Assembly (NCBI GenBank): GCA_043228905.1
Contig: JBHGNT010000010.1
Location: forward strand, 16,120,001-16,184,000
Source: Azolla caroliniana
Taxonomy: Eukaryota; Plantae; Polypodiophyta
Direction: 5' to 3'
DNA length: 64,000 bases
The translations under genes and the position numbers were made by a program. Below are positions 1,132 to 35,859 of this stretch, piece by piece (the first letter of the stretch is position 1; the number at the start of each line of letters is the position of its first letter). Below the pieces are notes generated by a model. It did no database searches and was not told where the DNA came from. It saw only the letters and a program-made list of their open reading frames with translations.

Positions 1132-1781
1132 TGTCGAGGTATTCCTCGCGGATGCGTGGAATGAGGCGGGACCTCGGGGGTCTTGTACCGAAGAGCAAGA
1201 GAGAAAGGAGAAGGGAAGGGACCCACTAGGTGCGAGCGTAGATCCACAGGGACACGGCCCTTCGACACGAAGACGCGAGCGGGAGACCAACACAGAGAGA
1301 CACGAAGGTATGTATGTATATATTAACAAAGGCAAACAACAAGAAGCACGAAGTCGGTTACAACCGAACAGGCCGGCGAACAGATGCCGATGCCTGTTCG
1401 CAAACTCTCAGAAAGAAAGGAGTAGGTTGGAGGTGCTGCCGGAAGCACTCGGGCATTCCTCAGAGCAGCGTGAGCCTCCCCGAAACCCTGCACTGAAAGA
1501 AGCTACGGAGTATGGAAGAGAGAGAAGCCTTCAACCGAAAACCCGACAGCACTTCGTCCTCTCTGATTCCTCGATGATCCCTTCCTCCTCCCCGTCTCCC
1601 TCCTTTTATAGGCAAGAAAGGAGTCGTTTCCCATTAACTTCCTACCTACCGAATCTACCTACCTAGGATCTTCTATGTACCCAATTCTCTCTTATGTACA
1701 ACATAAGATGTTCGTGCATGAAGAGCCGGTTCCTACGTTCCGGTGCACCGATTCCGCTTGTGGACGGTTTTCTTCACGACA
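1132..1781 (-). repeat. 3' LTR of element C
   Basis: Direct repeat of 7480-8129; minus-strand TATA (CTATAAAAG) near 1604-1612. Confidence 0.95.
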
Positions 1782-1854
1782 TCCGCCCCCACCTAACCGC
1801 GCATCCACCGGCATGCACCAAATTGAGTTGGGACGGAGAAAACCGGTCCAGCCT

Positions 1855-4800: not shown

Positions 4801-5319
4801 GCAGACCGGATCTCGCAAACTGGGGTCCGACGCAACCCCTCTAATCCGGGACTCGCTGCCCTCCGGTAAGGGTGCCGCGACTGGCCTTACCTTCCGGTCC
4901 ACAGTCTTCTACTTCGTGCTAACCCGGGCCGTCCGATCCGGCTCGAGCCCCTGACTGAAGTTCGCGATGACTTCGTACATCTCTTCGGAACATACCGGTA
5001 TCGTCCGGTCTTCGTTAAGGTCTTCTCCGGCTACCTTCCTCAGCATCCCCAAGGTGTCGTCGAAGGAGACCGCCTCCACGGCTCTGCTGATTTCCTCGTC
5101 CGGGCCGAGAACTCCGCACGCTCGAAGTCGCTCCTCTGCCCTTGCCTTTTCTCGGCCAACGATGCCGACTATCATACACCCTCCGTCGTTGGAGAAACAA
5201 AAAATTTTACCCATCGTACAAGGTTTCTTCGGTTTCGGTTCTATCGTACAACTGTGGGGTCTTTCCCGAGTGTCCGGACTGTCTCGGCCCCACGCCTTGG
5301 CAGCCCTCTCTAAAAATCC
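1855..5319 (-). pseudogene. pol: Element C pol (linker-RT-RNaseH-integrase) with a few stops, frameshifts and a small deletion
   Basis: ORFs 4909..5214, 3687..4706 (DLYSGYDQ, LPQG, FLDD), 3610..3840 (TVDTS RNaseH) and 1855..3495 (HHCC zinc finger, VDLV...DRGE...E core). No chromodomain. Confidence 0.9.
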
Positions 5320-7436
5320 TCCCGGTTCTCGCCACCGAGGGATTCACGGTTTCGCTCGTGGTTCGGTCGCACCGTCAGAAATTGGACCGAATGGCGCCCG
5401 TCCTGGCTTTTGACCCTCGCGTAGGCCGAACCGTTGTCTAGCACCTTGGTCTCCATCCGCGCCGCCGTGATGTATGGTTCCCCTAATATGACCGGGTGCG
5501 AGGACGTCTCCTGTACGAAGAAGTGCTGGTCAATCTCGACGTCGCCGATCTTGACTCGCACGTTCGGGCAGGCCCCGTGCAGTTCCTCGGTGGCGCGCAT
5601 CGCCGCCCGTATCTTCCACCCGTGCTTGGTGTTGATCGGCCACTTTCCCTTCTTATAGAAGTCCATGGACATCAGGTTTATTTCCGAACCGTGGTCCACC
5701 AGTGCCACCACCGGTTCCTGAACATCTCCGATCTTTACCGGGGTCTCCGTGGTCGCTCGGGCCCAGTGCGGCCTTGCATAGTGGCTCTCCGCCCACTCAT
5801 CTTCCAGCGCCATGTCGTCGATGTGCGACGTCCGCACCTCCACCGGTCTCTCCGGTTCTGTCTCCGTCGACAGCCTCTTCCGCTTCACCAAGTCCACAAT
5901 GGAGTCGTGGAACTCCTTCTTAGCGATCCCTAGCACCTCCCGCAATGGCAGCTCCACTTTGTTGTCGAGGATCCGTTCTTCTAGGACCTTTCATAGGTCC
6001 GTGGTCCTTTCTATTTCCGTCCCCAGTCGGTATCCGCCCTTCCTGGGGTTATCTTGCGCGCTGGACCCACCGGCATCGTTCCGTTGTTGCCCGAATCGGG
6101 TCTCGTATCGTTGTGAGGGCCCGGCCGCTCCGGCTTTCCCCACTCGTTTGTCTTCTACCAGAGCCTCGTAGTTCCGGCAGGCGGCTTCTACGAAGCCCGT
6201 CTTCTCCTCGACCGGGTCGCTTCACCCGGTTATTTCCCGGACCCGTCTCTCAGCGCGGTCCGCTTCATCTTTCCTCAGCCGTGCGCCGGCGAGGCCTTCC
6301 AGCATTGCCGACCAGAATCCGTCTTTGCTCTCCTTTCGGGCCTCGCTGCCCCCGACCCGAATGCCGGCCGACGCCGAGTAGTGGATGGCCTCCACGTGTC
6401 GGGCCGTTGCCTCTTCCATCAGTCTCTTCATACCTCCTCGCCCGTCGTTCCGGTTTAGGGCCCTTCTGGTATCGCCGGCGTGCACCCGGCCTTCCCATAG
6501 GTATACCACCCGGTTCCTCAACGCCTCTGCGAAATCGCCGCAGTCCTTCCGGATGTGGCCGACCTCGTCGCACCACATGCACCTGTTCCCTGCTGCCGGT
6601 CGTTGGTCACGAGCCGGTTCGCTGCCTTCCCTTCAAGTCTGGGCGATCTAGAGATCCTTTATAGCCCGCGTCAACTCCTCCAGCGCTGCTCCTCCGGACG
6701 AGTCATTGACCATGCCGGTCGGAGCCGAACCGGTTTCGAGCCACTCTCGGGTCTCTGCCCTTCGCCCTTGTGGTGCCGGTTCAAGCCTCCTTGCTGTGAC
6801 AGAGCCCGCTCCGGTCGCCCCGTTGTCAGCCCATTCTCGCCGTTTGTCGAAACGGCCACAGACTCTCTTAACCGCAGCCCAGTCGGTCGTCAGCCCATCT
6901 TTGGTTTCTAGCAAGGAGCCGACTTGATCCCGGTCCCGCTCGTCCACCGACTTGACGAACAGTAGGACCCGGCTCGTATCCAGAACGGTTCGGTCAAGCG
7001 CCGAAAGGCGCGCTAAGCGTTCCTCAAACTCCCGGAGGAGTGCCGACGCGTTTCTTCCCTTGCCGGGGGACTCCACCCATTCCATGAAGTCCCGTTTCGA
7101 AAGCCGGAGCGCGTCGTCCAGCCCGTATTTTTCTAGGAGTCGGCCTTCGAACTCCTCCCAAGTACGGCTCTCCGCCCGTACCTCGAGCACCTCCGCATGG
7201 ATGCTCGGCATCGCCACTCGAGGGAACCCGGCAAGACGCCTCTCTTCCGGAATGTCCCGCATCAGCATTTCTGCCCCATAGGACGCCAAATACTTCGTGG
7301 CATCCTTTCCGCTGAACCGGCCGATCGTACCGACGACCACCTCAATGGCTCTGTCGAGGGCGCCGGTGCCCTCCCGCGCGCTCAATATCCGATCCACGGC
7401 CGAAGCCATGGCCTCCGCAAGATCCGACCCCTTCAT
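5310..7436 (-). pseudogene. gag: Element C gag-protease ORF with nonsense mutations; ends EDF-stop at the frameshift site
   Basis: ORFs 6648..7616, 6222..6578 (CMWCDEVGHIRKDC) and 5310..5957 (ALVDHGSEIN, VILGEPY). Confidence 0.88.
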
Positions 7437-7459
7437 CTTCTGCTCTTCTCCCGCCTCCT

Positions 7460-7476
7460 TCACGTCGGGTTCACCA
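7460..7476 (-). other. PBS of element C (tRNA-Trp)
   Basis: TCACGTCGGGTTCACCA on +, 3 nt from the 5' LTR. Confidence 0.88.
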
Positions 7477-7479
7477 AGA

Positions 7480-8129
7480 TGTCGAGGTATTCCTCGCGGA
7501 TGCGTGGAATGAGGCGGGACCTCGGGGGTCTTGTACCGAAGAGCAAGAGAGAAAGGAGAAGGGAAGGGACCCACTAGGTGCGAGCGTAGATCCACAGGGA
7601 CACAGCCCTTCGACACGAAGACGCGAGCGGGAGACCAACACAGAGAGACACGAAGGTATGTATGTATATATTAACAGAGGCAAACAACAAGAAGCACGAA
7701 GTCGGTTACAACCGAACAGGCCGGCGAACAGATGTTGATGCCTGTTCGCAAACGCTCAGAAAGAAAGGAGTAGGTTGGAGGTGCTACCGGAAGCACTCGG
7801 GCATTCCTCAGAGCAGCGCGAGCCTCCCCGAAACCCTGCACAGAAAGAAGCTACGGAGTATGGAAGAGAGAGAAGCCTTCGACCGACAACCCAACAGCAC
7901 TTCGTCCTCTCTGATTCCTCGATGATCCCTTCCTCCTCCCCGTCTCCCTCCTTTTATAGGCAAGAAAGGAGCCATTTCCCATTAACTTCCTACCTACCGA
8001 ATCTACCTACCTAGGATCTTCTATGTACCCAATTCTCTCTTATGTACAACATAAGATGTTCGTGCATGAAGAGCCGGTTCCTACGTTCCGGTGCACCGAT
8101 TCCGCTTGTGGACGGTTTTCTTCACGACA
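7480..8129 (-). repeat. 5' LTR of element C
   Basis: Direct repeat of 1132-1781. Confidence 0.95.
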
Positions 8130-8524
8130 GCGGAAAACGTAAAACAGAGAACAACACACAGGGAGAGAGAGAGAGCGAGAGAGACAGAGAGAGCAGAACA
8201 CAATTTCCAAAATTATATCAAGACTCTGTACTACACACTGTGCTAAGTAACACTATTTATACAAGTCCTCTTGGGACTGACAGAAGTACCATGTACTTCA
8301 ATGCTCACACGAGCATCTGACACTTACTACGAGACTATAGATACCTAGTAGTCTATCCTATTCTAGGCTTCCGATTGGACTACCGGTTACGGATTGCACC
8401 CGGCCTCCACTGCTTGCCGGTTCGGTTGCTCACCGTCATACCGATCTGTTTCGCCCGATCCGTCTCGCTTACCGGCTCCGGCTTATTCAGCCGATTCGGC
8501 TCCGGTTGAGCTTGCCGCTCAACA
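8130..8524 (-). repeat. Main part of the 3' LTR of Copia B (the remaining 21 bp lie at 1111-1131)
   Basis: Matches 13673-14067; adjacent to PPT TTGAGGGGGAG (- strand). Confidence 0.93.
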
Positions 8525-8542
8525 CTCCCCCTCAAGCTCAAC

Positions 8543-11500
8543 CTAAGGTGGGGTCGTAGTGTCGACCTCTGTGGCAGTCGGTTCTTCCAACCGACTTCTC
8601 CTGGCGTCACTCCGCCTTGCTCGCGCTCCTCGTCCGGTCCGGTCCCGTTTGCCGCGACCCCTTTGGTTCTGCGCGCCTCGACCCTCTTGGTCGGTATGTC
8701 TGCTCAATAGGCCCATCTCAGCAGTCACGTTGTTGTGACTCCGGCGCTTGCCGATCCGTTGGTTTTCCCACGATGGCATCGACTTCCGCTGTGTCTGTGT
8801 CCCCTTGGCCTTCAGTCGATCCGACTCATCCGGGTCCATCTGTTGATCCGAGTTAGCTGTATCCAACTCGTTCCAGCTCTTGTCCGAATCGGTACACTCC
8901 GATTCGACTTCCGGCTTCAGGCCTCTCACCACATCGGACCACTTCCGAGTCTTGGCCTTCTCCATGCTTCCCTCGGCTTCTTCAGCCGGTGAACCGAAAT
9001 CGAATTCTCCATTCGACTCCGCATCATGGTCAGTACCGTCGTGATGACCTCCGCACAGCATGCACTTCTCTTCCTGAGTGCACAACTCTTCTTCACAGCC
9101 GCTTGCTCCGACCTGTTCGGATGTGTCGACTTCCTTCGTCGACTCGGCTTCCTTCATCTTCTTGTCTCCTCTTCTTCCGGCTCTCCTCTTACCGACGGGT
9201 TCAACAGTTTTTTTGCCTTTGCCCGTTTCGATAGGGATTTTGCCCTTGCTTCTCCCCCTCAAGTGTGGCACGTCGAGACGCTGAATACCAAGCATGTCGG
9301 TAAAGTGCTGCAACTTGTCCGATCCGAGCGGCTTGGTGAAGATGTCGGCAACTTGCCGATCCGTATGAACATACCGTAGGTCAACTTCACCGCTCAGGAC
9401 CCGCTCACGCACGAAGTGGTAGTGCACCTCGATGTGCTTTGTGCGAGCATGGAACACAGCGTTCCTGGCGAGCTGCAGGCTGCTCATGTTATTGCAGTAA
9501 ATCGGGATCGGGGTCGGCACCTCGATCCGCAAGTCTCGCAGCAGTCGCCGAAGCCAGATGGCTTCACAAGTGGCAACGGTAGCGGCCCGGTACTCAGCCT
9601 CAGTGCTTGACAACGCCACTGTGGGCTGCTTCTTGTTGCTCCACGCAACGGCCGCGCTACCTATGGAAAACATGTATCCGGAAGTGGAGCGGCGATCAGA
9701 CGCATCGCCGGCCCAGTCAGCATCGGTGTAACCGACAAGCTCTTCGGGTATACCTCGCCGGTATAGCAGTCCCCGGTCCTTAGTGCCGCTGACATACCGT
9801 AATATTCTTTGCGCGCACTGAAGGTGCTCCACGGTCGGCTTCTGCATGAACTGACTTACCATGCCGACCAGATAGCTGATGTCGGGTCAGGTGATGGTTA
9901 AGTAGATCAGGCTTCCGACAACCTGTCGGAACCGTTTCTCATTGCAGGCCGGTCCGGAGTTGGGACGGAGCTTCTGGTTCCGATCCAGGGGTGTGGAGAC
10001 AGGTCGGCAATCCAACATGCTGAACTTATACAGCATATTCAACACGTAATGTCGTTGTGAGAGAAATATGCCGTCGGGGGTCCGGATCACTTCGATCCCA
10101 AGAAAATAATGGAGGTCCCCCAGGTCCTTCATTTCGAATGCGTCCGACAACTGGGACTTGACGCGGTTGATTTCGAGAAGACCCGGTCCGGTGATGACTA
10201 AATCATCCACATACAAGAGTATACATACCGGACCGTCAGAGCCTTGCCGGATGAACAACAAAGAGTCCGACTTAGAGACAGCAAACCCCAGCTTACGCAA
10301 CCGGTGCGTGATCTTCGCGTTCCAGGCTCGGGGGGCTTGCTTCAAGCCGTAAAGCGACTTCTTCAATCGGCATACTGCCGACTTGTTCATCTCCGAGTGA
10401 AATCCGGGGGGCTGAGTCATAAAGACTTCTTCTTCAAGCTCTCCTTGAAGGAAGGCGTTCTTCACATCCATCTGGTGAAGATGCCACCCCCTTGCCGCAG
10501 CAACCGCCAGTACCACACGAACCGCCGTCATCTTCGTCACAGGAGCGAAGGTCTCATCGTAGTCGATTCCGTGGGTCTGCGCGTATCCCTTCGCCACTAA
10601 CCGGGCTTTGTACCAGTTAACAGAACCGTCGGCGTTGTACTTGACCTTGTACACCCACTTGCATCCGATCGGTTTACAGTGACGGGGAGGATCAACTAGG
10701 TCCCAAGTTTCGTTGGCATCGAGTGCCCGCATTTCTTCGTCCATAGCGGCACGCCAATTTGCGTCCTTTGCCGCTTCTGCGTAGCTCTTCGGCTCGCGCA
10801 CTTCTGTCACCTTAGTCATGTACGCATAATGATGCGCCATGTATTCATTGTACCTGTACCGCACGACGGGATCCTTCTGACGGGTTGATCGGCGCAACAC
10901 ACCGTCACCTGAATTGAGGCCCATCTTGGCCAGTTCGGTCTTCGTTGCCGAAGATCTGCCTTTCTCCTTTCCGGAGTCAGATACGCACCGATCCGACTCA
11001 TCGTTGCCGGTTTCGAATTCCGGCAGCTTCCTCTTCCCCTTCTCTTTGCGCGTGAACCGTTTCCTCGGTTCCTTGCGCGGGGAGAGCACGGTAGAGTCTC
11101 CACCACTTGCCGTCTCTTCATCTGACTGGTCCAACCGACCCAGTCGCTCATTCGGTCCACTCAACTGTAACGATTCCGGACTCTCATCTTGAGTCCCGGC
11201 TTCATCATCCTCTGCCAGGGCTGATTCAGGCTCACTGGCCTGATCTTCCGGCATTGGGTCGGGATCGGAAGTCGGAGTCGGTACGGAGTACCAGGATGCC
11301 AATTCGTCAAACTCGACATCCCGGCTAACTCGGACTTCCTTCGTCCGGGGGTTATAGCACTTATACCCCTTTTGCTCTTCAGCATAGCCAACTAGGATGC
11401 ATTTTTCCGATTTTGCATCCAGCTTTCTCCGCTTCTGATCCGGCACATGCACATACGCTATGCTGCCGAATATCCGAAAGTGTCTCAAGTTCGGCTTGCG

Positions 11501-13561
11501 CCCAAAATACAGCTCATGAGCTGACACCTTGTCACCAATGCGGTTTTGTATGTAGACGGTCGTCTGGACCGCCTCCGCCCAGTAGAACCAGGGCATGGTC
11601 TTCTCCTCCAGCATTGTCCTCGCCACTTCGACGAGTGTCCGGTTCTTCCTTTCGGCCACACCGTTTTGCTCCGGTGTGTATATGCAGCTGACCTCTCGCC
11701 GAATTCCCTTCTGTTGCAGATAACGAGTGAATTGGCCGGAAAAATATTCCTTTCTGCCATCCGACCAAAGGCATTTGATCTTCCTCTCCGATTCCCGTTC
11801 CACCATCTTCTGGAGGCTCCGGAAACAGTCGAAGACTTCGCTCTTCCGCTCAATGAGGTAGATCCAAGTATGTCGAGTATAGTCGTCGATGAAGGAGACG
11901 AAGTATCGGCTCCCGCCAAGGCTTACACTTTGTGCCGGTCCCCACACATCCGAATGGATGAGATCGAGCTTGTTACGGCTCCGGTTCCGTTCGGTGGGGA
12001 ATGGAAGCCGGTGCTGCTTCCCAAGTTGGCAGGCTTTACAAATTTCGGCTCTCCGGCCGCTGAACTTCGGCAAACCGAAAACGACTTGTTTCGTTTGCAG
12101 ATCTTGAAGCCTCCGGTAGTTGACGTGGCCTATCCGCTTGTGCCACAGGTTGATGTCCGACTCGACCTTCTGTCGTTTCGCGAACAGAGCGGTGCCAAAG
12201 TCATTGGTGTCGAGGATAAACATCCTCCCGTCTCTGCGCCCTTGCGCAATGACTTCGCCCTCATCCTCAATGAAGCACCCGAGGTGCATAAACCGCACCT
12301 GCATCCCCTGGTCGACAATCTGACCGACGGACACCAGGTTCTTCGTGATCGTCGGAACGTGTAACACGTTCATCAGCTTCCCTTTCTGTCCGACGTGGCT
12401 TAGAGGGACTTCTCCGACGTGCACGATTGGGTGAGGAGTGTCGTCTCCGGTTTCGACTACTCCTGGTTGATCCAGTCTCTCCAGAAAGGAGAACCACTCT
12501 TTGTGGCTCGTCATGTGGTTCGACGCGCCGGAATCAACATACCACACTTCCTCCGATTTGGAAGTGGTCTTCTTCATTGAATTTGCCTTGTGATTCATCA
12601 CCAAGGCTGGCCCCTTACCGGCCTTTCCGGTTCCGGATCCTCCTGATCCGTTTGCGTAGTGCGAGTTTTGCCGGCCATCCTTACCGGTCTTGGCAGATCC
12701 GGATTTGTCCGAATCGGCACGCTTTCTCCAGCACTCGCTTTCCCTGTGGCCTTTTTTGCCACAGTACCAGCATTCCGTAGCGGATTTGTCTTGCCGGCCT
12801 CCGGCACCGCCTTGACTCCCCCTGCTTGTGGAAGTCCCGGAACTACTGTCGGCACACTCATAGTACCTCCGTTCCTGCTCTTGCCGGCCGCCTCCATTGT
12901 GTGCCGACCCACCTCTTCCACCACGCCCACAGTGCCGATCCGTTCCCGTGTACAGCATTCGGCTGTCCGGAGATGCACTAGTAGATGCACCGGCGTGGTT
13001 CTCCTCTACAAGGAGCATCAACTGTAAGTCGAAGAATGAGGGGGTATTCTCCCTTGTACACACCGCAGTCCGGAACGCTCCGAACTTGGACGCCAGGCCT
13101 CCGAGACATACTTGCACCATCTCGTCTTCCTCTACGGTAACATTGATAGAGGGGAGCGAGTCGCAGATCTCCTTTATCCGGCCCGTGTAATCTGCTACGG
13201 ACATGTTCTTTTGTCGAACATTGCTCAACTCCTGTCTGAGTTGCAGCTTCCGGGCAGTGGTGCTTGCGGCAAAAACCTTTTTCAGGTTCCCCCAAGCATC
13301 CTTCGGTGTCTTGGCGTCACGGATGTGGCTGAGCAGCTGATCGCCGACACTGGACGTGAAGCAGTACATCACCCTGCTTTCCGCCTGTTCCCATACCGGG
13401 AAGTCCTTGTGTGCCGAGTCTGGCGCCCCATCATTCACTCCTTCGACATAACTCCAGTACCCGTGTCCAAGCAGGTACTAGTGCATCTTGTAAGACCAGG
13501 ATGCGTAGTTGCTCCTGTCGAGCTTCTCCACCGGGAGCGACGTAGCCATGCCTCTATCCAT
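8543..13561 (-). pseudogene. pol: Copia gag-pol polyprotein with two in-frame stops (13478-13480, 9887-9889) and a ~235-aa C-terminal extension
   Basis: KLDRSNYASW N-terminus, CWYCGKKGHRESEC, WYVDSGASNHM, WHKRIGH...C..C, IHSDVWGP, KARLVAKGY, LLYVDD, YTDADWAG, TKHIEVHYHFVRE, ADIFTK. Confidence 0.93.
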
Positions 13562-13642
13562 GTCTTCTACTGTGTCTGTTCTCGACCTGTTAGGGTTTTC
13601 TTCTCAAGAGTAAATGTCTGCAGCAGAGGTTCTCAACCCTCG

Positions 13643-13655
13643 CGCTCTGATACCA
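13643..13655 (-). other. PBS of Copia B (tRNA-iMet)
   Basis: TGGTATCAGAGCG on the minus strand, directly next to the 5' LTR. Confidence 0.92.
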
Positions 13656-14067
13656 TGAAAACGTAAGTGTTTGCGGAAAACGTAAAACAGAGAACAACAC
13701 ACAGGGGGAGAGAGAGAGAGAGAGATACAGAGAGAGCAGAACACAATTTCCAAAATTATATCAAGACTCTGTACTACACACTGTGCTAAGTAACACTATT
13801 TATACAAGTCCTCTTGGGACTGACAGAAGTACCATGTACTTCAATGCTCACACGAGCATCTGACACTTACTACGAGACTATAGATACCTAGTAGTCTATC
13901 CTATTCTAGGCTTCCGATTGGACTGCCGGTTACGGATTGCACCCGGCCTCCACTGCTTGCCGGTTCGGTTGCTCACCGTCATACCGATCCGTTTCGCCCG
14001 ATCCGTCTCGCTTACCGGCTCCGGCTTATTTAGCCGATCCGGCTCCGGTTGAGCTTGCCGCTCAACA
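13656..14067 (-). repeat. 5' LTR of Copia B (412 bp)
   Basis: TGAAAACG...CTCAACA; matches the split copy. Confidence 0.95.
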
Positions 14068-14612: not shown

Positions 14613-15674
14613 TGTCGTGATGATCCGTCACTACGCACGGATCGTGAGGCGGAACCGCTAGGGTTCTGGACCGGAAGGACTCGAAGTTGGCGCAAGCTTT
14701 AGCGAGAAAGGAATTAAGATAGATTGAAAGAGAGAGATTGAGATAAGATAGAGCGCTTGATTTTAGATTGAGAGAGAGATTAAGAACTCTTGACTTTAGA
14801 TTTCAAGAACAAGGTATATCATCCAAAGGATAACGAATTTTCTTCTTAATATTAATTTTGATTTAAAGTACAAAGCTTTTTTTTATCAAAAAAACCCCAT
14901 TGATCTTTTTTTTCATTCCCTCTTTTATAGATGCCCTCATGCATTTGAGGGTTCAAGACATGCATAAAATGCATGTTTGCCATTTGGCACTCATGTATTA
15001 CATGTGGTGCATGATAACCATGTCACTCATTTTAGCTCTCATGTATGAGAATTTATATGTAAAAGTAAAATGATATAAATATAAATTCAACTAAATGTCA
15101 TAGCTTAGTGGTAAGCCTATTGACTCTTAACTAAGAAGTGCAAGGTTCGAATCCTCACTTGCCCTCCTTGTATATTATGTGATATTTATTTATTAATTTG
15201 GTCGCCGATTGCCGGTTCCACCGGCTCGCTGGCTCCGTTTCCGTCGGATGACGGTTCCGCCGGATCACCGGCTCCATCGTCGGTCCAGTTTTGGTTGGCC
15301 AAAACCTTTACAAGTAGCTAGGCCACCTCCACTCTTAGTTCAAGTTACCTTGAACTCTCTATTCTCCACACATAGACACAAAGATAATAACTTTTGCTCC
15401 ACCTTATATATGGTGAGAGCCTTATTCGTCCTGTCTATGTGGGATATCTCATAATTTTCTCTTTTTCTTTCGCAACTTCTTACCCACATAAGTTGACACT
15501 TAGATGTCTGTTTCTTATGTAGTAAAGTGCACCTCTTCAAGATCTTCGTCTTTTATACTAAGATATTAAACTTACTTAGAATTAGTATATTCACTATTAT
15601 TGTTTTATATGATTGACACTTGATTTTGTACGTTTTATGTGATTTTCACACCATTGCCAAAAATCTTCACGACA
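14613..15674 (-). repeat. 3' LTR of element D
   Basis: TGTCGTGA...TCACGACA; similar to 20008-21150; minus-strand TATA near 14924-14931. Confidence 0.9.
15094..15165 (+). other. tRNA-like Pol III module (A box + B box) in the U3 of the D LTR, antisense to the element
   Basis: TAGCTTAGTGG at 15101 and GGTTCGAATCC at 15144. D-arm GCTT/AAGC pairs; anticodon and acceptor stems are poor. Confidence 0.7.
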
Positions 15675-15794
15675 TCCACCCCCACCAAACCGCACGTCCT
15701 CCGGTACGTGCCAAGAAGAGAGAAAGTAAGATTTCGGCAATGGTGATCAGCATGACTCCTCCACGTCGAGCATGTCCTTTCCTTTGCACTCAAA

Positions 15795-17911
15795 TCATGG
15801 TTGCCAGCCAATCCACCATATCATTCGTCTTTTCTTTGCTTTACCATGACTTGTTGTCATGGCCCCTTGCTCCCTTCCTGAGAATAATCGTTTAAGTCTC
15901 ATAAATGTACCACCTTTGTCTTGATCGTCTCCTTGCTCAAGGCACTTGGACTCATTCACAGCAGTGTCTTTGATAGATGTTTTGATCACATCCGTCAAAT
16001 CCTCATGGCTCGCTTGGCCATCGCTATCCCTTGCCATATTTTGCGCAAATTCTTCGTTGCACGCATCAGCTTTAACCCTTACTTCTTCCCCATCACTATC
16101 CTTCTCTTGGGTCTTACATCAAGTAAAGCCCAAGTCTCCGGAAAGAGTGTGGAGGGACCTATACATTTCCGTCGTTTGCCTTTTTCGTGCCGCACTTAGC
16201 CATTTCCATCTTAATGTTTCTTGAATCAGCATTGATCTTTGCCTCCTTGTCGTCGTTGCGCGAATCAGCATTGACCTTTGCTTCCTCGCCGCCAGCTTCT
16301 GTCTTTTGCCGTATGTATTAGTTTCGGCCTTCGGTTCTTCGCCATCACCTCCCGTCTCTTGGGTCTTACATCGGTTCTCGGACGCAATTGCCCAAGTCTC
16401 TGGAAAGAGTGTGGAGGAAATTTGGTCGTCGTCATTATCTGTACTATCTTTGTCCTTGTCTTCCTTTTTGCCACCATTCGTCTCTCCGGTCTCACGTTGG
16501 TTCTCGGACACAACTGCTGAAGTCTCTAGAGTTAGTGGGCCGGATTCCTTAGTATCACCTTCCTCCATCATTTCGTCCATAGCCTCCTTCTCGGCTATCT
16601 CTTTATCATATACATCGGCTTTGACCTTTGTTGTCTCTCCTCCATCTTCCGTCTCTTCGGTCTCACCTTGCCTTTCGATCGCAACCGCTGAAGTCTCTGT
16701 AGTTAGCAGTGGGAAAGTCTCAACAGGACCAATTGCCATTGACTCGTTCATAGCCCTCTCCAACTCGATGTCGTTTTTCGTGGCTATCTCTTCAATCTCA
16801 TGGGCCTCGCACCCATTGACTCTCTTCATCGAACAAGCTTTGATTATCCTTCTCTCTTTAGCTTCGACCTCTGGTTCTTCGCCGCCACCTCCCATCTCTT
16901 GGGTCTCACGTTGGTTAGCGGATGTAACTGCCCAAGTCTCTAGTACAGCTGCGGAGAAAATCTCACCATGGTCGTTGTCGACTCTTGTTGTCTTCATATA
17001 GCCACCTCCTCGATTTTAGTGGTTAGATCCTCTATCATGTCGATCTCGCACTCTTTATCTCCTTTAATGCAAGCTTCGATTAGGCTTGCTCCTTCATCAT
17101 TCTTTGTTTCGAACACGACGCATGTTCTGAAACATTTGTCCTCCTTTGAAATGGTCGTCATCGTCCTCGACTCATCATCAATCTTCTTTTCATGTTGCAT
17201 GTGTTCTTTAGGCGTCTCTACTTCTTTGGATGGTTTTGCTTTCTCTATGATCAGCCTTACCAAGTCAATACCATCAAGCCATTGACGACGTCTATCGATC
17301 TTGTTGCATGCTTGCTTCACCGTAACCTAGTCCGCCACAAGCCTGTTCGCTTGGGTATCATCTTCGAGGAGAGTCCCCAACTGTCTTCTATCCTTCATGT
17401 CCACAACTTTTAAGAAGTATAAAGTCTTGTCCTCTTCAAGTAGCACTTGATCCGTGTTGGGGAGACGACCAAACATTTGGTTGAATTCGTCGTACACCCT
17501 CGAGGTGTTCATCTTCTTATTCTTCTTCTCTATCCACTTCATCAGGGCATGTCGAGTCATCCTTGTTGAGTCTTCAGTCGCGAACTCCACAAATATCGTT
17601 TTCTCGAACTCGGACCATGTTGTCTTCCCTTCTTGAAGTTCGATGACGCGTCTTTGAACGTTGTTGGCGACAACTCTCTTGAAGCTTGCAATTTGACGTG
17701 CTTCAGACATGTCCCTTTGATTCATCTCCCTTCTATATGCATCAAGGAACTTCGTAACGTTCCTTCCATCAAATTGGCCCTCGAGCTTTACGACACAATT
17801 GATAGCCTTCTCCACGCTCGTGTCGTTGTCCCGAGATCTCATCATTTGCTCGACGATTAGCATCATCCTTTCGAGCTCTCCCGCTTTGTTGCTTGAGGAC
17901 GCCATCTCCAA
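15795..17911 (-). pseudogene. gag: Element D gag followed by an acidic, repetitive ORF; broken by stops and frameshifts
   Basis: 17327..17911 (GQFDGRNVTKFLDAY, homologous to A gag), then 16994..17320, 16119..16997 (repeats of ET[WS]AV.S.NQ.ETQE.GG.GEE) and 15795..16037. Confidence 0.75.
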
Positions 17912-17972
17912 CTATTAATCTCAGCTTGATCCTTCCTACCGCCTCGTTCACATCGGGTTCACCACTTAATTA

Positions 17973-19959
17973 TGTCGTGAAGATCCGTCACTAGGCGCGG
18001 ATCGTGAGGCGGAACTGCCTGGGTTCTGGACCGGAAGGATTCGAAGTCGGTACAAGCTTTAGTGAGGAAGTATTTAAGATAGATTGGGAAAGACAGAAGT
18101 TGAGATTAAACGCTTGAACTTCGATTGAGAGAGATTGATTGCACTTTTATCTTTAGATTTAAGAAACAAGTTACACGATCAATTCGATAGCGAATTTTCT
18201 TCTTCTTAATTTCATAACCAATCCCTTCTTTTAAAGATGCTCTCATGCATATGATGCATGTGAGGGTACAAGACATGCATAAAATGCATGTTTGCCATTT
18301 GGCGTTCATGTATTACATGTGGTGCATGATAACCATGTCACTCATTTTAGCTCTCATGTATGAGAATTTCCATGTAAAAGTACAATGATAGAAATATAAG
18401 TTCAACTAAATTTCATGGCTTAGTGGTAAGCTAATTGACTCCTAACTTGGAGGTGCAAGGTTCAAATCCTTACTTGCCCTCCTTGTATATGTGTATATAT
18501 ATTTATATATTTATTTATCTCGTCGTCGTCCGCCGGTTCGCTGGATGTCGTCGCCTCGCCGGCGTCAGATGCATTGATTAATCACGGATCGGAGATCAAT
18601 TTGATGTCCAAGGAGTTCTACCGGAAGGGGAAGTGGCCTACAAACACTAACCATGGATGGAAGATCCGAGCAGCCACTAAAGCAACGGAAGATCTATTTG
18701 CGGCTTCTCCGGATCGGCAACATCAAAGAGCTCATGCTAGCATTGATTAATCACGGATCGGAGATCAATTTGATGTCCAAGGAGTTCTACCGGAAGGGGA
18801 AGTGGCCTACAAACACTAACCATGGATGGAAGATCCGAGCAGCCACTAAAGCAACGGAAGATCTATTTGCGGCTTCTCCGGATGTGAGGGTGAAGATCGG
18901 GGATGTCGAGATCGACCAAAATTTCTTCGTACAAGACGAGGTCTCACATTCCGTGATCCTACGGCAACCCTTTATCGCAGCTTCACGGATGGAGACAAAG
19001 GTGCTCGATAGCGGTGTGGCTTTCGCACGAATTCGGAGCCAAAGCGGAGGGAAATCCGTCCAATTCCTAACTGTGCCGGAAAATCATGAAAGGAACAAGA
19101 GAGAGGTCTTGTCCCAAACAAGGATGGATTTTTAGAGTGGACTATTGCGGAGTGGGGAAGTGATAGTCCGAGAAGCCCTGATACCCTACACAGGAAGAAA
19201 ACTCTCGGAGCAAAACAAGTACGAATCGGTCCAGATGGGGCATCTACGTACACGGTCGTAACTGGAGGAAAGAAGAAAGAATACCGAAAAATAGAGGATA
19301 AGTTGCGGTCGGCATCAATAATAAAAGAAGACGAAGAAATCATGGGGGTAGTCAAAGAAGTGTTCTATGGGATCACGCTACAACGGCTTGAAGAGCTTCT
19401 AGAGGATAAAAGCCGAGGAGACCGGGTAGTCCCGGTGGAATCGGTCGAGATGTACGAGATCATTGCGAAAATGGGGTAAGCTAATTGACTCCTAACTTGG
19501 AGGTGCAAGGTTCAAATCCTTACTTGCCCTCCTTGTATATGTGTATATATATTTATATATTTATTTATCTAGTCGTCGTCCGCCGGTTCGCTGGATGTCG
19601 TCGACTCATTTTAGCTCTCATGTATGAGAATTTCCATGTAAAAGTACAATGATAGAAATATAAGTTCAACTAAATGTCATGGCTTAGTGGTAAGCTAATT
19701 GACTCCTAACTTGGAGGTGCAAGGTTCAAATCCTTACTTGCCCTCCTTGTATATGTGTATATATATTTATATATTTATTTATCTAGTCGTCGTCCGCCGG
19801 TTCGCTGGATGTCGTCGCTCTTGAAGACCTCCATCATTTTGTACTTAGATATTAAACTTCTTTAAAATGTTATCTTCACTATTATTGTTTTATGTGATTA
19901 ATACTCGATTTTGTACGTTTTATGTGATTTTCACACTATTGCCGAAAATCTTCACGACA
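17973..19959 (-). repeat. Middle LTR of D: diverged variant containing a 907-bp filler from element A and internal duplications
   Basis: Starts TGTCGTGAAG next to the PBS and ends CTTCACGACA; 19475-19602 and ~19603-19817 repeat parts of 18340-18553. Confidence 0.8.
18571..19477 (+). repeat. 907-bp duplicate of the element A protease/linker region 21333-22239
   Basis: Nearly identical (about 7 substitutions by eye), including the same 169-bp tandem duplication. Confidence 0.9.
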
Positions 19960-20007
19960 TCTCCTCCATCTTCCGTCTCTTCGATCTCACGTTGCACCAC
20001 TTAATTA

Positions 20008-21150
20008 TGTCATGAAGATCCGTCACTACGCGCGGATCGTGAGGCGGAACCGCTAGGGTTCTGGACCGGAAGGACTCAAAGTTGGCGCAAGCTTTAGCGG
20101 GAAAGGAATTAAGATAGATTGAAAGAGAGAGATTGAGATAAGATAGAACGCTTGATTTTAGATTGAGAGAGAGAGTAAGAACTCTTGACTTTAGATTTCA
20201 AGAACAAGGTATATCATCCAAAGGATAACGAATTTTCTTCTTAATATTAATTTTGATTTAAAGTACAAAGCTTTTTTCTATAATAAAAAAAGTCCCATTG
20301 ATCTTTTTCATTCCCTCTTTTATAAATGCCCTCATGCATTTGAGGGTTCAAGACATGCATGTTTGCCATTTGGCGCTCATGTATTACATGTGGTGCATGA
20401 TAACCATGTCACTCATTTTAGCTCTCATGTATGAGAATTTATATGTAAAAGTAAAATGATATAAATATAAATTCAACTAAATGTCATGGCTTAGTGGTAA
20501 GCCTATTGACTCTTAACTAGGAAGTGCAAGGTTCGAATCCTCACATATATGTGATATTTATTTATTTATTTGGTCGCCAGATGTCGTCGGTTACCAGTAG
20601 TTGTCGTCGGATGCCGATGCGCCGGCGCCGGTTACCGTATGTCGTCGCCTCGCCGGCGCCGGATGCCGTCGGATGTCGGTTCCACCGACTCGCTGGCTCC
20701 ATCTCCGTCGGATGACGGTTCCGCCGGATAACCGGTTGCCGGTGTGCCACCGTCGCCGGTCCAGTTTTGGTTGGCCAAAACCTTTACAAGTAGCTAGGCC
20801 ACCTCCACTCTTAGTTCAAGTTACCTTGAACTCTATATGCTCCACACATAGACACAAAGATAATAATTTTTGCTCCACCTTATATATGGTGAGAGCCTTA
20901 TTCGTCTTGTCTATGTGGGATATCTCATAATTTTCTCTTTTTCTTTCGCAACTTCTTACCCACATAAGTTGACACTTAGATGTCTGTTTCTTATGTAGTA
21001 AAGTGCACCTCTTCAAGATCTTCGTCTTTTATACTAAGATATTAAACTTACTTAAAATTAGTATATTCACTATTATTGTTTTATATGATTGACACTTGAT
21101 TTTGTACGTTTTATGTGATTTTCACACCACTGCCGAAAATCTTCACGACA
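20008..21150 (-). repeat. 5'-most LTR of element D
   Basis: TGTCATGAAG...CTTCACGACA, flanked by TSD TCGT; tRNA-like module at 20487-20540. Confidence 0.9.
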
Positions 21151-21897
21151 TCGTGAAGAGAAAAAGACAACATACGGAGGAAAATGCTTCAAGGGTAAAT
21201 ACGAACATGGTTTTAATGAATGACACCGAAGTGGAGGACGAAATTACGAACTCCCACTACACAAGGCCACACTGGGCACGTGCAACTACGGAGACTCCGG
21301 TCCGAATCGGCAACATCAAAGAGCTCATGCTAGCATTGATTAATCACGGATCGGAGATCAATTTGATGTCCAAGGAGTTCTACCGGAAGGGGAAGTGGCC
21401 TACAAACACTAACCATGGATGGAAGATCCGAGCAGCCACTAAAGCAACGGAAGATCTATTTGCGGCTTCTCCGGATCGGCAACATCAAAGAGCTCATGCT
21501 AGCATTGATTAATCACGGATCGGAGATCAATTTGATGTCCAAGGAGTTCTACCGGAAGGGGAAGTGGCCTACAAACACTAACCATGGATGGAAGATCCGA
21601 GCAGCCACTAAAGCAACGGAAGATCTATTTGCGGCTTCTCCGGATGTGAGGGTGAAGATCGGGGATGTCGAGATCGACCAAAATTTCTTCGTACAAGACG
21701 AGGTCTCACATTCCGTGATCCTACGGCAACCCTTTATCGTAGCTTCACGGATGGAGACAAAGGTGCTCGATAGCGGTGTGGCTTTCGCACGAATTCGGAG
21801 CCAAAGCGGAGGGAAATCCGTCCAATTCCTAACTGTGCCGGCAAATCATGAAAGGAACAAGAGAGAGGTCTTGTCCCAAACAAGGATGGATTTTTAG
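21151..21897 (+). pseudogene. Element A protease region with a 169-bp frameshifting tandem duplication
   Basis: HWARATTETPV, ALINHGSEIN (catalytic D replaced by N), ends MDF-stop; 21306-21474 repeated at 21475-21643. Confidence 0.85.
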
Positions 21898-24800
21898 AGT
21901 GGACTATTGCGGAGTGGGGAAGTGATAGTCCGAGAAGCCCTGATACCCTACACAGGAAGAAAACTCTCGGAGCAAAACAAGTACGAATCGGTCCAGATGG
22001 GGCATCTACGTACACGGTCGTAACCGGAGGAAAGAAGAAAGAATACCGAAAAATAGAGGATAAGTTGCGGTCGGCATCAATAATAAAAGAAGACAAAGAA
22101 ATCATGGGGGTAGTCAAAGAAGTGTTCTATGGGATCACGCTACAACGGCTTGAAGAACTTCTAGAGGATAAAAGCCGAGGAGACCGGGTAGTCCCGATGG
22201 AATCGGTCGAGATGTACGAGATCATTGTGAAAATGGGGTTGGATGCGCTCCACAGAAGAAGCAATGGTAAGTACAAAATACAAGACCGTGGAGAAGAAAG
22301 TGAAACCGGCCACGGAACCGTTACCCTCCGATAGCAAGCAAAAGAGGAAAGAAGTCTCGGGAGATCCGACACTTTCGGAAGTCCGTGGATATCAGACATG
22401 CCTTCACGGATGAGACCCAAAAGAAACTTTGGATCGGTGGAGGTGGTTTCCTTTTACAAAATCAAGAAGAATGATTCGTGGGATGTTGGAACAACATGGG
22501 AAAGCATTTGCATTCACATCGAAGGAGATAGGGTGCGTTGATCGAAGATAGTGGAACCGATGGTGATCTTCACGATTGACCATGTGTCGTGGAACTTGAA
22601 GCCGATTCCGGTGCCACAGACGCATATTCCCAAAATCATCGACTTGCTCAAGGAGAAGGTGGCGATGGGGATTCTAGAGCCATCAAACGCTCCGTACTCA
22701 AATCGATGGTTTACGGTTCCGAAGAAGAATGGGTCACTCCGATTTATCCAAGACTTGCAACTGGTGAACAAGGTCACGATCCGGAACTCCGGAGTCGGTC
22801 CAATAGTGGACGAATTTGCGGAAACATTTGTCGGTCGTGCAATATACTCCATCGGAGACCTATACTCGGGGTATGACCAATTCCAACTAGCCATCGAGAG
22901 CCGAGACATCACTACCATGCGGACACCGATAGGATTAGTTCGAATGTGCACACTACCACAAGGAGCGACAAACTAGGTTGCACATATGATGAACGCGATG
23001 AACAAGGTGCTTTGAGATTGCATTCCGGAGATACCGATGTCGTTCCTAGATGACATTCCGATGACAGGATGCACGGTAGAAGAAAAAGATGAAACTATGG
23101 ATGATCGGGGATGCCTAAAGTTTGTAGTCAACCATATTCGTGATTGCGAGAAAGTGCTTCGAAAGTTAGAAGATGTGCACCTAACACTTTCCGGGGAGAA
23201 ATCGGCATTCGGGCAAGAAGAGATATTGGTACTCGGACATCTATGTGGGCCCTACGGCCGAAGACCGTCTCCAACCAAGATCGATGCGATTCAAGCTATG
23301 AAAGAAGTATGCGAGTCATAATCCGAAGTCCGAAGCTTTCTTGGAGCTTGTGCATTTTATCACATATAGATTCCGCACTATGCACATATTGCGGACCCAC
23401 TCTATCACTTATTGCAGAAGGGGAAGAAGTTCGAATGGAAACCGGAACACGCCAAAGCCATGAAGAAGCTCAAGAAAACATTACGGAGGGCTGAAGCACT
23501 TAAGAAGCCGAGCTATGAGCGACCAATCATAGTAATGGTTGATACAAGTCCAACCGGGATCGCATGGGTCATCAATCAAGCCGACTCGGATGGTTTGCAA
23601 TATCCGATCCGATTCGGAGCAAAGGTTCTTAACGAAAGGCAACGCGGATATGCACAAGTCAAAAGAGAATTATGAGGAGTCGTGTCAGCAATCAAATCGG
23701 ATCCAAATTATTTGATTGGAGCCAAAGTAGTGATCGAAACGGATTGTTTTCCGATACTCGGGATGATGTGGTGTTGCACGATACCGGATGTGGCTATGCC
23801 AAGGTGGATTGCATATGTTAAGTCACTTAACCCGGAGGTACGACACATCTCCGGAAAAGACAACGTGGTAGCAGATATGCTATCAAGGGCTCGGTTCGGA
23901 GACGACATAACCGAATCCGATAATGAAGAAGTTTCTGAAGACTACTTTGCTTCGGAGCACATATGCCGGGTGAACGTAATCCGAGTATTCCGGGAAGAAG
24001 AATAGGAGGGAGAAAGCTTGTTGATCGGGAAAGTGCTACAAGAAATGGAGGAATCATCGGACAATAAAGAGAAGAGAGCCGAGATCCGAAGTAAGAAGCG
24101 GCAAGTTCGAAAGTTCTTCTTGAAAAATGGATTAATATGGAGGGAGCCAAAAAGACCGGATGGCATACCACTTTGAGTAGTCAGGACGAAAGAGCAACGA
24201 AACCGGATAATGTCCGAGTTTCACGAATCTGATTGGGCTGGAAATCAAGGGACATGGGCAACTTTTGCGAAAATCAAACAAAAATATTGGTGGAAGAATA
24301 TGTAAAAAGATATAGCGGAGTTCACGGAAAGCTGCGAGAAGTGTCAAATCTACTCCGGAGTTCGACACCGAGATGAGTTACATCCGACATTCTCACCGAC
24401 AATCAACTTCAAATGGATGGTCGACATTGTAGCCATGCCAACCGGGATCGAACAAAAGAAGTACTTGGTGTTAGCTCGGGAAGATCTCACAAACCAAGTA
24501 GAAGGTCGGGCGCTACGAAGGAAAACGTGTTCTACGGTATGCGAATTTCTTTTGGAGGAGGTGTTTTGCAGGTACGGGTGCGTAGGACAAGTGATTGCGG
24601 ATCGGGGAGAACTTGACTCTAATAAAGCTAGGGAATTCTTCACCAAACATGGAGTTCGGTTAACACTAACAACGGCATACAATCCGGAGGCCAATGGGAA
24701 AATCGAACGAGGACATAGTCCAATCGTCAAAGCACTGCATGCAACGGAAGGGCGAAGGATTGACCGCAGATGCTCCTGTATGCACTATGGGCAGATCGGA

Positions 24801-25476: not shown

Positions 25477-26264
25477 TGTCGTAGTGTAAATGGCACACTA
25501 TGAGAAAATTGCATTTTTGGTTCCTCCGGATGGGACGAAGCAGAGCCGGCAAGAGCCGGATGAAGAAAGTCGGTAAGAACCGGTAAGGAGGATCCGGTAA
25601 GAACCGGAACAAGCAGAACCGGCAAGAGCCGGATAAAGAAGGTCGGTGAGAGTCTCTCACCGGATGAAGAGACAAATTTGTAAAATAGAAGAAAATATTT
25701 ATTACGTGCATAGGGCAAGATTTAAACCTTGTACCTCCACGTAGATAAACCCCAACCTTACCATTGTACTAACTTATCCTAAGTGTTCTAAATATAGATT
25801 TAATACGTACAAGACCTTTATTTACGCCTACCTTTATTAAAAGGTAATTCATGCATTTTTAGAATGCGTGAATACTTTAATTATAAGAAAAATGTACACC
25901 AATAAAAAATTACCCGTGCACATTTAGTGTGCATGAACACTTTAGAAAAAGCATGAAACTATGCTTAGCCTCTTCCATCCTTATATAATATATTCGTGGG
26001 ATGTATGAGGTTGTTGATTTTTTACAAGGATTGATCAATCTAATATATTCATGGGATTCACGAGTTTATCATCAAAATTCTCTTTCTTATAATCTAAATA
26101 TTGATTAAATACACTAAACACGTGGGATTTCCAAGATTTATTTCTTACTTCTCTTTCTACCTATTTCATAACTAGCCTTATATTGTATTCTTCTTTCTCC
26201 TAGTCCAAAACCTCAGTGGTTCCCACCCGACTCACGCAACGATCCAGAGCCGAAAGGCACGACA
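25477..26264 (+). repeat. 3' LTR of element A (788 bp)
   Basis: TGTCGTAG...CACGACA after the PPT; CCGG-rich short repeats at 25545-25665; TATA near 25982. Confidence 0.9.
25706..25778 (-). other. tRNA-like Pol III module in the U3 of the A LTR, antisense to the element
   Basis: Minus strand reads TAGTACAATGGTAAG...GGAGGTACAAGGTTTAAATCTT, with the same 43-nt A-to-B box offset as the D module. Confidence 0.55.
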
Positions 26265-30439: not shown

Positions 30440-31320
30440 TGGGGGCTTGGTGATATGCGCGTAATGGGGAATCCAAATGTGGTAGAAGGTGTGAGCTCCC
30501 AGGAACTGTCGGACCTTTGTGACTGGCCTGCACTCTTCCTTCATCGTCGTGATGGCCTCTACCTTGGCCAGAGACGGTTTCCGACCATAAGGTCCACACA
30601 GGTGTCTGACCACCAAAACCTCCGATTGTCCGAACACCGACTTCTCCCCAGAGAAGGTAAGTCGAGCGCCCTCAAGCCTTCGCAACATTTCTCGTAATCG
30701 GAGATGTGGTCTGCAACGAATTTACGACATCCATCTGTTCCAACTGTTTCGTCCTTCGTGTCCTCCGAACATCCCTTAATCAGGATATCGTCTAGAAACG
30801 GCATGGTGATGTCCGGGATGCAATCCCTCAGCACCTTATTCATTGCATTCACCATGTGTACCACCGAATTGGTACCTCCTTGAGGTAGGGTACACATCCG
30901 AAGTAAGCCGAGAGAGGTGTCAAGATTCGAACTCTTGACACGACCATGTTATAATCTACTATTATGAGTTAACCAAGATATCTAGTACTAGTTATGTATG
31001 TAATTGGTCCTTATTATTTTGCTAGCATCGTGTGCATAGTTGCTCCCTTGTAGTATTTACACTTGGCACATGCATGCATACCTACATGCTCTATTGTAGA
31101 TTCACATGCGTGCAACAAGTATGCATGCCATGTAGTATAAATAGAGGAGTTCACCTTGAAGGAATTCAAGGTGAACAACACCAGTTATGGAGTCTTTCCT
31201 TTAGTACTATCTTCTTTCTTGTCCATTTGGTTATCTTCTTGGTTGTCTCTCGAGTTTATGATCTGTGACAGTTTGTTCACCTTCCCATCCTCATAGCTCT
31301 CCCTCTCATAAGCCATAGCT

Positions 31321-35300: not shown

Positions 35301-35859
35301 TGCTAGTGAACGATACAAGAAGCAGGCTGATCGCCATCGATCTTCCACTCCACACTTTGTCGTTGGAGACATGGTCTGGTTGTTACGTCGACACATCTCT
35401 ACTACTCGTCCATGTGCGAAACTTGATTACAAGAAGTTGGGACCATTCCGTATCATCGAGTGCATCAATCCCGTCGCCTTCCGGCTCGCCCTTCCATCCC
35501 ACTTCCGGATTCACGATGTTTTTCATGTCTCCCTCCTCGAACCCCGTTATGCTTCACAACTCCCAAGCCGTCAAGCCCCACCACCACCACCTGTGCAATT
35601 GACGACAGGGGAGGAATACAAGGTCGACCAAATCCTTGACTCGCGTTGGCACCGTCGACACTTGCAATACCTCGTCCTATGGAGGGGTTACCCCATGTCT
35701 GAGGCCACATGGGAACCATCGGCAAATTTACAAAATGCCCCAAAGGTCGTCCAAGATTTTCATCACCGATATCCCCACAAACCAGCGGCCGATTTGGGAA
35801 GGCGACGTAAGAGGGGGGATAATGTCAAGATTCGAACTCTTGACACGACCATGTTATAA
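32310..35859 (+). pseudogene. pol: Chromovirus Pol (PR-RT-RH-INT-chromodomain) in the -1 frame, with nonsense and frameshift lesions
   Basis: LLDSGASS, YLDDILI, ETDASDFAIG, DKELAAI, HHCC, SDRGPQF, GPF, and EYKVDQILDSR...YLVLWRGY...TWEP chromodomain. Stops near 32420, 34401 and 34702. Confidence 0.92.

What the first reader, a model, noticed from the sequence alone, without database searches (positions are those of the whole stretch)
15074..15295. tRNA-like Pol III cassette built into LTR U3, antisense and divergent from the LTR promoter (element D)
Seen: all three D LTRs carry T(A/G)GCTTAGTGGTAAGC...GGTTC(G/A)AATCC (A boxes at 15101, 18416, 19680, 20487; a B-box-only copy at ~19509). The D-arm pairs perfectly, box spacing is tRNA-like, CAA and an AT-rich tract lie just upstream, and the module sits ~170 bp upstream of the Pol II TATA, pointing away. 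The anticodon and acceptor stems do not fold, so it is not a tRNA gene. The boxes persist between two clearly diverged LTR variants. Established: Cassandra TRIMs carry 5S-derived Pol III promoters in their LTRs, and TFIIIC-bound B boxes act as chromatin barriers in yeasts. Inference: a tRNA-type counterpart, giving each LTR an insulator/anti-silencing module or a short antisense Pol III RNA (first TTTT at ~15289). Best candidate here for an undescribed system.
Basis: partly seen in the sequence, partly recalled or inferred. Interest (0 to 1): 0.85.

Follow-up and report, generated by a model that had tools for sequence, protein, structure and literature searches.

The report
Backwards tRNA relic in plant LTRs
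The end repeats of an abundant plant jumping-gene family, and of a distant relative, carry a worn, back-to-front piece of tRNA-like DNA with RNA polymerase III promoter boxes; it is likely an old insertion carried along as a dispensable passenger, though weak signs of selection leave open that it still docks the polymerase III factor TFIIIC.

Summary
A/B boxes 43 nt apart sit at the stated positions (0 of 3000 shuffles give such a pair), antisense in the U3 of a high-copy Phygy-like Ty3/gypsy LTR. The four window copies are only two independent variants. All 8 informative outside LTRs, found by a flanking motif, carry the module. A decayed homologue lies in the same orientation and spacing in the LTR of a second family (25712-25771; gag 34% identical), so the capture is likely old. 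It is not a tRNA gene and shows no sign of being a free SINE. Evidence for function is mixed. Key box positions vary less than the rest of the module (1/12 vs 26/57, p=0.014) but not less than LTR flanks (p=0.14). Only 3 of 8 outside copies keep a consensus B box, a young subfamily shares C56T, there is no fixed terminator, and two related families lack it. tRNA-type boxes in LTRs are published (Helenus, Kojima 2024); this differs by being antisense, in a long LTR of a gag-coding element. This scan noted a similar backwards relic in another genome. Verdict: new variant of a known kind; passenger about 50%, retained TFIIIC site about 33%.

The parts
14613..15674 (-). LTR of family D, variant 1 (3' LTR next to the PPT); TG...CA ends
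15101..15169 (+). tRNA-derived module (tRNA position 8 to a 3' end resembling the acceptor strand), antisense to the element; A box 15101-15111, B box 15144-15154
15061..15100 (+). AT-rich tract with CAA (15088-15090) upstream of the A box; 86.6% pairwise identity, CAA in 8 of 11 copies
15170..15200 (+). variable (TA)n/AT-rich tract after the module; possible old retroposon tail, no target-site duplication found
14923..14930 (-). predicted Pol II TATA of the LTR; the same TTTTATAG motif occurs in the LTRs of families A (1604, 7952) and F (39552)
14961..15060 (.). CATG-rich block between TATA and module; best-conserved stretch measured (about 94%)
15675..15689 (-). polypurine tract
17327..17911 (-). 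gag-like ORF (194 aa), 34% identical to the gag ORFs of elements A and H'; no pol found in this copy
17947..17964 (-). primer-binding site (tRNA-Trp type; the assignment is recalled, and Trp is the dominant Phygy PBS in PMC6317226)
17973..18570 (-). LTR variant 2, truncated on the U3 side; module 18416-18485 on +
19475..19959 (.). scrambled duplicates of variant-2 LTR pieces; B-box-only copy at 19509, full module at 19680
20008..21150 (-). second variant-1 LTR (31 substitutions in 1036 aligned bases vs 14613); module at 20487 with its 3' part deleted
25712..25771 (-). decayed homologous module in the LTR (25477-26264, + strand element H) of a distant family; antisense, 43-nt spacing, C11T and C56T
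   Evidence: (nhmmer E=1e-4)

Best explanation
A tRNA-like A/B-box segment sits backwards in the U3 of this LTR family and of a distant relative, and is likely an old insertion (a SINE head or tRNA retrocopy) now carried mostly as a dispensable passenger. Shown: the module is a fixed part of the LTR in every informative copy examined, points away from the element's own transcript, does not fold as a tRNA and has no fixed terminator. Inferred: it inserted once, before or during the split of families D and H (or moved between them by LTR exchange), and has since been copied with U3 at each retrotransposition. Being antisense it cannot supply the element's genomic RNA as the Cassandra promoter does, and lineages with a broken B box likely still amplified. 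Some past or partial selection on the boxes is not excluded.
For: The module is at the same LTR position in 8 of 8 informative loci picked by a flanking motif. A consensus B box survives in only 3 of those 8: C56T in L002, L004 and L006, deleted in L008, T60A in L003. L004 and L006 differ at 1 of 553 sites and both carry C56T, so the change likely passed through a transposition round. The B-box CpG has decayed both ways, to CA and to TG. Boxes (A 90.7%, B 88.2%) are not more conserved than the CATG block (94%) or the TATA flank (90.7%); key positions vs flanks p=0.14. The first T4 ranges from +12 to +659. There is no compensatory pair change in the tRNA-like or the alternative hairpin, 0 of 9 and 0 of 10 pairs. 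The LTRs of related families A and F show no module. Blastn to phage tRNAs gives 73-79% identity over up to 81% of the module, mostly at weak E-values and to mixed isotypes, consistent with tRNA ancestry.
Against: Key box positions vary in 1 of 12 columns against 26 of 57 in the rest of the module (p=0.014, 8 outside copies only). The A box fits consensus in 11 of 11 D copies and the spacing is 43 in all 11 and in H. Between D and H the spacer is near random (3-5 of 14) while the V-loop/B-box side is 17-21 of 25 and key positions 10-11 of 12 (p=0.07); for 2 of 3 D LTRs this is the best ungapped 24-mer between the two LTRs. Laid contigs show no variant at >=4% across 15138-15166 in 4 of 4 runs, although this is probably a seeding artefact. 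L004 and L006 may be collapsed assemblies of one locus.
Confidence: 0.5

Rival explanations
1. The module is a retained TFIIIC-docking (and possibly Pol III-firing) element that helps the LTR, for example as a barrier or anti-silencing site 170-210 bp upstream of the Pol II TATA; useful but not essential, so some lineages lose it.
For: Box-focused conservation within D (1/12 vs 26/57, p=0.014) and between D and H. Fixed 43-nt spacing and the same orientation and position in two families with 34% gag identity. A-box variants at >=4% in four runs fall only on tolerated positions 15102, 15106 and 15108 (seed bias applies). CAA at -7..-3 in 8 of 11 copies, as at Arabidopsis tDNAs (PMC7544208 passages). 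H's two violations are C>T changes in a copy whose pol has at least 10 stops, so they may postdate insertion.
Against: C56T in 3 of 4 copies of one subfamily, two of them 99.8% alike; not more conserved than flanks (p=0.14); no terminator; absent from A and F. Clustered, methylated tDNAs with intact boxes are repressed in Arabidopsis (PMC7544208 passages). No occupancy or expression data.
Confidence: 0.33
2. The relic is kept because part of it was co-opted as ordinary Pol II enhancer sequence of U3, not as a Pol III element.
For: The stretch best kept between D and H extends about 14 nt upstream of the B box and tolerates loss of C56. It adjoins the conserved CATG block and TATA.
Against: The within-D conservation falls on A- and B-box key positions in particular. 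No factor was identified.
Confidence: 0.1
3. A free, active tRNA-SINE family has inserted independently into a few LTRs.
For: tRNA-like head followed by a simple-repeat tract; a few loose ends at 15105-15153 in X1, X3 and X19 show divergent versions.
Against: Identical position in 8 of 8 outside LTRs; no target-site duplication longer than 6-7 low-complexity bases in 12 copies; only 0-6% of laid contigs run on into unlike sequence; those loose ends resemble LTR or H-like flanks.
Confidence: 0.04

Closest known systems
Helenus (TRIMp3; Kojima 2024, PMC10886601; text parts 1-5 of 6 read, supplement passages seen)
   Same: tRNA-derived sequence with boxes A and B inside LTRs, no functional cloverleaf, no complementarity to the PBS, proposed origin by SINE insertion into an LTR; one plant family (Selaginella). 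The paper also says that 'not a few' Repbase LTRs contain part of a tRNA.
   Different: Helenus are non-coding TRIMs of 311-1263 bp. In the Helenus-1_SMo consensus the tRNA part is sense to the PBS and is proposed to transcribe the element. Here the LTR alone is 1.06-1.19 kb, the element has a gag ORF and a TATA-type promoter, and the module is antisense.
Cassandra TRIMs (5S promoter in LTR; as described in PMC10886601; 10.1101/2023.07.14.548913 abstract and outline seen)
   Same: Pol III promoter sequence carried in plant LTRs.
   Different: 5S (type 1) rather than tRNA (type 2) boxes; drives the element's own transcript and is highly conserved. Here it is antisense and the B box is often broken.
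Simian foamy virus LTR Pol III miRNA units (PMC3993851, passages read)
   Same: A/B-box Pol III units inside a long LTR that also has a Pol II promoter.
   Different: Proven transcripts with terminators and processed hairpins. Here there is no fixed terminator, no covariation and no expression data.
Phygy lineage of non-chromovirus Ty3/gypsy (PMC6317226, passages and one supplementary table row read)
   Same: NCGN 4-bp targets and a Trp-type PBS.
   Different: This copy lacks pol; no tRNA-like LTR module appears in the passages read; the lineage was not tested by phylogeny.

Membership tests
Helenus / TRIMp3 | tRNA-derived sequence with boxes A and B in the LTR | tested here: met
Helenus / TRIMp3 | short non-coding TRIM (311-1263 bp in total) | tested here: not met
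   LTR 1062-1190 bp, 2.3-kb internal part with a 194-aa gag-like ORF
Helenus / TRIMp3 | Pol III promoter oriented to transcribe the element | tested here: not met
   module is antisense to PBS and gag in D and in H
Helenus / TRIMp3 | Pol III transcription | not testable with these tools
   no run on record as RNA among the holders
tRNA gene | cloverleaf with acceptor and anticodon stems | tested here: not met
   acceptor 0-1 of 7 in 10 of 11 D copies (5 of 7 in L008, where deleted sequence is replaced), anticodon stem at best 3 of 5; ARAGORN 0 at default; relaxed calls are inconsistent in isotype
Free tRNA-derived SINE | dispersed copies outside LTRs with TSD and tail | tested here: inconclusive
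   no TSD in 12 copies; 0-6% of laid contigs run on unlike; no whole genome to search
Phygy (Ty3/gypsy) | 4-bp NCGN target | tested here: met
   non-internal flanks CCGT, CCGC, ACGT, ACGT, ACGC, GCGT in L001, L003, L005, L009, L006, L008 (L001's other flank reads CCAT) and TCGT at 21151
Phygy (Ty3/gypsy) | tRNA-Trp primer-binding site | tested here: inconclusive
   PBS at 17947-17964 is shared with elements A and H'; its assignment to Trp is recalled, not from a call
Phygy (Ty3/gypsy) | RT/RH/INT phylogeny | not tested
   D has no pol here; no reference set held
TFIIIC barrier / insulator site | TFIIIC occupancy and boundary activity | not testable with these tools
   needs ChIP and reporter assays

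The most novel reading that the evidence does not exclude
Phygy-like gypsy elements of a plant lineage have kept, across families as distant as 34% in gag, an antisense tRNA-type A/B cassette 170-210 bp upstream of their Pol II TATA as a TFIIIC-docking barrier or anti-silencing element: a Pol III module used as DNA architecture in a protein-coding LTR element rather than as the element's promoter, and spread as thousands of mobile TFIIIC sites.
Probability: 0.3. Interest if true: 0.7.

Novelty: new variant of a known kind. Interest (0 to 1): 0.33.

Why it matters
If it is a passenger, it is a clear case of a tRNA relic amplified to high copy by an LTR family, relevant mainly to repeat and tRNA-pseudogene annotation. 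If the boxes are selected, a plant retrotransposon would be using TFIIIC next to its own promoter. Natural alleles (intact, G57A, C56T, deleted) already exist in the family, which makes the open question of TFIIIC insulators in plants directly testable.

Tried and rejected
No whole genome is held, so no genome-wide LTR census was possible. The flank motif and module patterns found 0 hits in viral contigs and genome contigs. No RNA holder was listed; this says nothing on expression. The invariance of 15138-15166 in laid contigs was set aside as probably a seeding artefact: the window's own variant-2 letters at 15149 and 15156 are absent although linked variant-2 letters at 15118, 15127 and 15133 reach 38-82% in X1, and the 94% variant at 15056 is missing. 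Summed depths were not used as copy numbers or to rank parts. Self-priming was rejected: no complementarity between module and PBS. A conserved RNA fold is not supported: variant 2 folds well (z -3.0 to -4.3; variant 1 z -0.8 to -1.3) and a hairpin with the B box in its loop is 90% paired, but 0 of 10 pairs covary. The Rfam hits (snoR79 E=0.14, SpF41 E>=6.6) are below gathering score and taken as chance. An apparent module remnant at 39842-40050 is not significant (118-394 of 500 shuffles score as high). No empty-site LTR was found; deletions across the module are single low-depth contigs. A landing-pad role (earlier finding e1-10420520) found no support: the 100 bp upstream of the A box are LTR sequence in 8 of 8 loci. 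The tRNA isotype was not resolved. A homologue search of the gag gave 63 unnamed hits and no lineage. The tree of 11 copies is poorly supported (most nodes 41-75%). Capture by read-through of a primer tRNA was considered; the module does not match the family's PBS, so it is left as a minor possibility.

Full report
Setting. The window is a nest of plant LTR retrotransposons beside an SBP-box gene (Pfam). No whole genome is held. DUF4100-like gag regions, NCGN target flanks and a shared PBS point to Phygy-like Ty3/gypsy elements (PMC6317226: passages, one supplementary row), probably in a non-seed plant; the host was not identified. Element D reads on the - strand: PBS 17947-17964, gag-like ORF 17327-17911, PPT 15675-15689, no pol. 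Its outer LTRs (14613-15674, 20008-21150) differ at 31 of 1036 sites. Between them lie a truncated variant-2 LTR, a 99.2% copy of host sequence (18571-19477) and duplicated LTR scraps.

Four A+B pairs at 43-nt spacing and one B-only copy sit where stated, and 0 of 3000 shuffles of the LTR give a pair. Three of the five are near-identical duplicates, so the window holds two independent variants. It is not a tRNA gene. Blastn against phage genomes matches tRNA-Trp, -Lys and -Asn genes at 73-79% over 64-81% of variant 1, mostly at weak E-values; this fits tRNA ancestry without fixing the isotype.

The module belongs to the family's LTR. The LTR is held, in whole or part, by 20 of 22 listed runs from 10 studies, and 1329-5830 contigs per run were laid on it in 4 of 4 runs tried, so the family is abundant in several related organisms. 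A scan of metagenome contigs with a flanking motif that ignores the boxes gave 9 loci. One (L007) ends before the module; the other 8 all carry it at the same place, including L003, only 69-79% like the others. No target-site duplication flanks it in 12 copies, and 0-6% of laid contigs run on into unlike sequence. A free SINE is therefore unlikely, though it could not be excluded genome-wide.

A second family has it too. The LTR of the host element H (25477-26264, + strand) carries a decayed homologue at 25712-25771 on the - strand (nhmmer E=1e-4; 0, 0 and 5 of 500 shuffles score as high for three D modules). It is again antisense, with 43-nt spacing, about 210 bp upstream of a TATA-like motif at 25980. 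The H-type LTR at the window start (95% to H) leads into a gag only 34% identical to D's. The LTRs of families A and F, which share the PBS or TATA context, show no module. The capture is thus old, or U3 was exchanged between families (inference).

Is it under selection? For: the A box fits consensus in 11 of 11 D copies. The 12 key box positions (set from the recalled tRNA consensus; PMC10886601 gives TRGCY, YGG and GGTTC) vary in 1 of 12 columns against 26 of 57 in the rest of the module, using only the 8 outside copies (p=0.014). H keeps 10-11 of 12 key positions and 17-21 of 25 on the B-box side while the spacer is near random (p=0.07). Against: the key positions are not significantly more conserved than LTR flanks (45 of 167 variable, p=0.14), and pairwise identity of the boxes (90.7%, 88.2%) is below that of the CATG block (94%). 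Only 3 of 8 outside copies keep a consensus B box. C56, which is critical for TFIIIC binding (recalled; PMC11724288 passages show the B box as the high-affinity site with base-specific contacts), is T in L002, L004 and L006. L004 and L006 differ at 1 of 553 sites and retain 18 of 20 other CpG sites, so the change is likely inherited through transposition, although the two contigs could be collapsed views of one locus. The first T4 lies 12 to 659 bases after the B box. No stem covaries. Dropped before counting: 19509 and 19680 (duplicates), L007, L008 after its deletion, and 20487 after its deletion. The apparent invariance of the B box in laid contigs favours selection at face value but is probably a seeding artefact (see Tried and rejected).

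Mechanism. The most likely reading (0.5) is an old tRNA-derived insert fixed backwards in U3 and copied with it, now largely a dispensable passenger. Position, orientation, family-wide presence and lack of fold or terminator are shown; origin and dispensability are inferred. The main rival (0.33) is a retained TFIIIC-docking element that helps but is not required; nothing here tests occupancy, transcription or barrier activity.

Comparison with what is known. tRNA-type A/B boxes in LTRs are published as Helenus/TRIMp3, with one plant family, and the author notes that many other LTRs hold tRNA parts (PMC10886601). D fails membership: it is not a TRIM, and the module is antisense, whereas it is sense in the Helenus-1_SMo consensus seen (orientation was not checked for the other families). 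Cassandra (5S) and foamy-virus LTR Pol III units (PMC3993851 passages) are further precedents. Searches (listings only, apart from the papers named) found no paper on an antisense tRNA-like module in Phygy-type LTRs; the library lacks most subscription papers and Repbase. The scan's own notes hold a similar backwards relic in another genome (e1-9852194; unchecked). Verdict: a new variant of a known kind, interest 0.33.

Noticed in passing
window 25712-25771 (-): Homologous tRNA-like module in the LTR of the distantly related host element H, same orientation and spacing.
   Followed up: yes
window 39842-40050: A 32-nt match (94%) to the CATG-rich block of the D LTR directly after the end of element F's LTR; may be an old D-like LTR relic into which F inserted at a TCGT site. 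The module remnant there is not significant.
   Followed up: partly
window 18571-20007: Element D holds a 99.2% copy of host sequence 21333-22239 (including a 169-bp tandem duplication) and shuffled LTR scraps joined at short microhomologies, suggesting template switching or repair after insertion.
   Followed up: no
window 18449-18482 and homologues: The 3' half of the module can form a 10-bp hairpin with the B box in its loop (90% of cells paired in 9 copies, no covariation); H lacks 5 nt of the 3' arm.
   Followed up: yes
window 15403-15450 and 20879: A second TATA-like motif in the D LTR whose context resembles the H LTR's TATA region at 25980, on the opposite strand relative to the element; the D LTR may be a composite.
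   Followed up: no
loose ends at 15105-15162 in runs X1, X3, X19: More divergent versions of the module with H-like upstream flanks, hinting at further LTR families that carry it.
   Followed up: no
window 14730-14791 and 20125-20186: Weak Rfam match to plant snoR79 (E=0.14-1.1, far below gathering) in the AG-rich U5 region; probably chance.
   Followed up: no
window 1132-39841: Nest of elements: Phygy-like A (1132-8129) holding a copia element (8130-14067), H holding D, and a chromodomain-bearing gypsy element (30918-36175) inserted in the RT region of F.
   Followed up: partly
window 55323-58984 and 59183-60107: SBP-box gene with a long His/Asn-rich N-terminus, followed by four tandem copies of a unit of about 235 bp.
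   Followed up: no
L002, downstream of the module: A truncated D LTR ends in a microsatellite next to what reads by eye as exons of a host gene; not tested.
   Followed up: no
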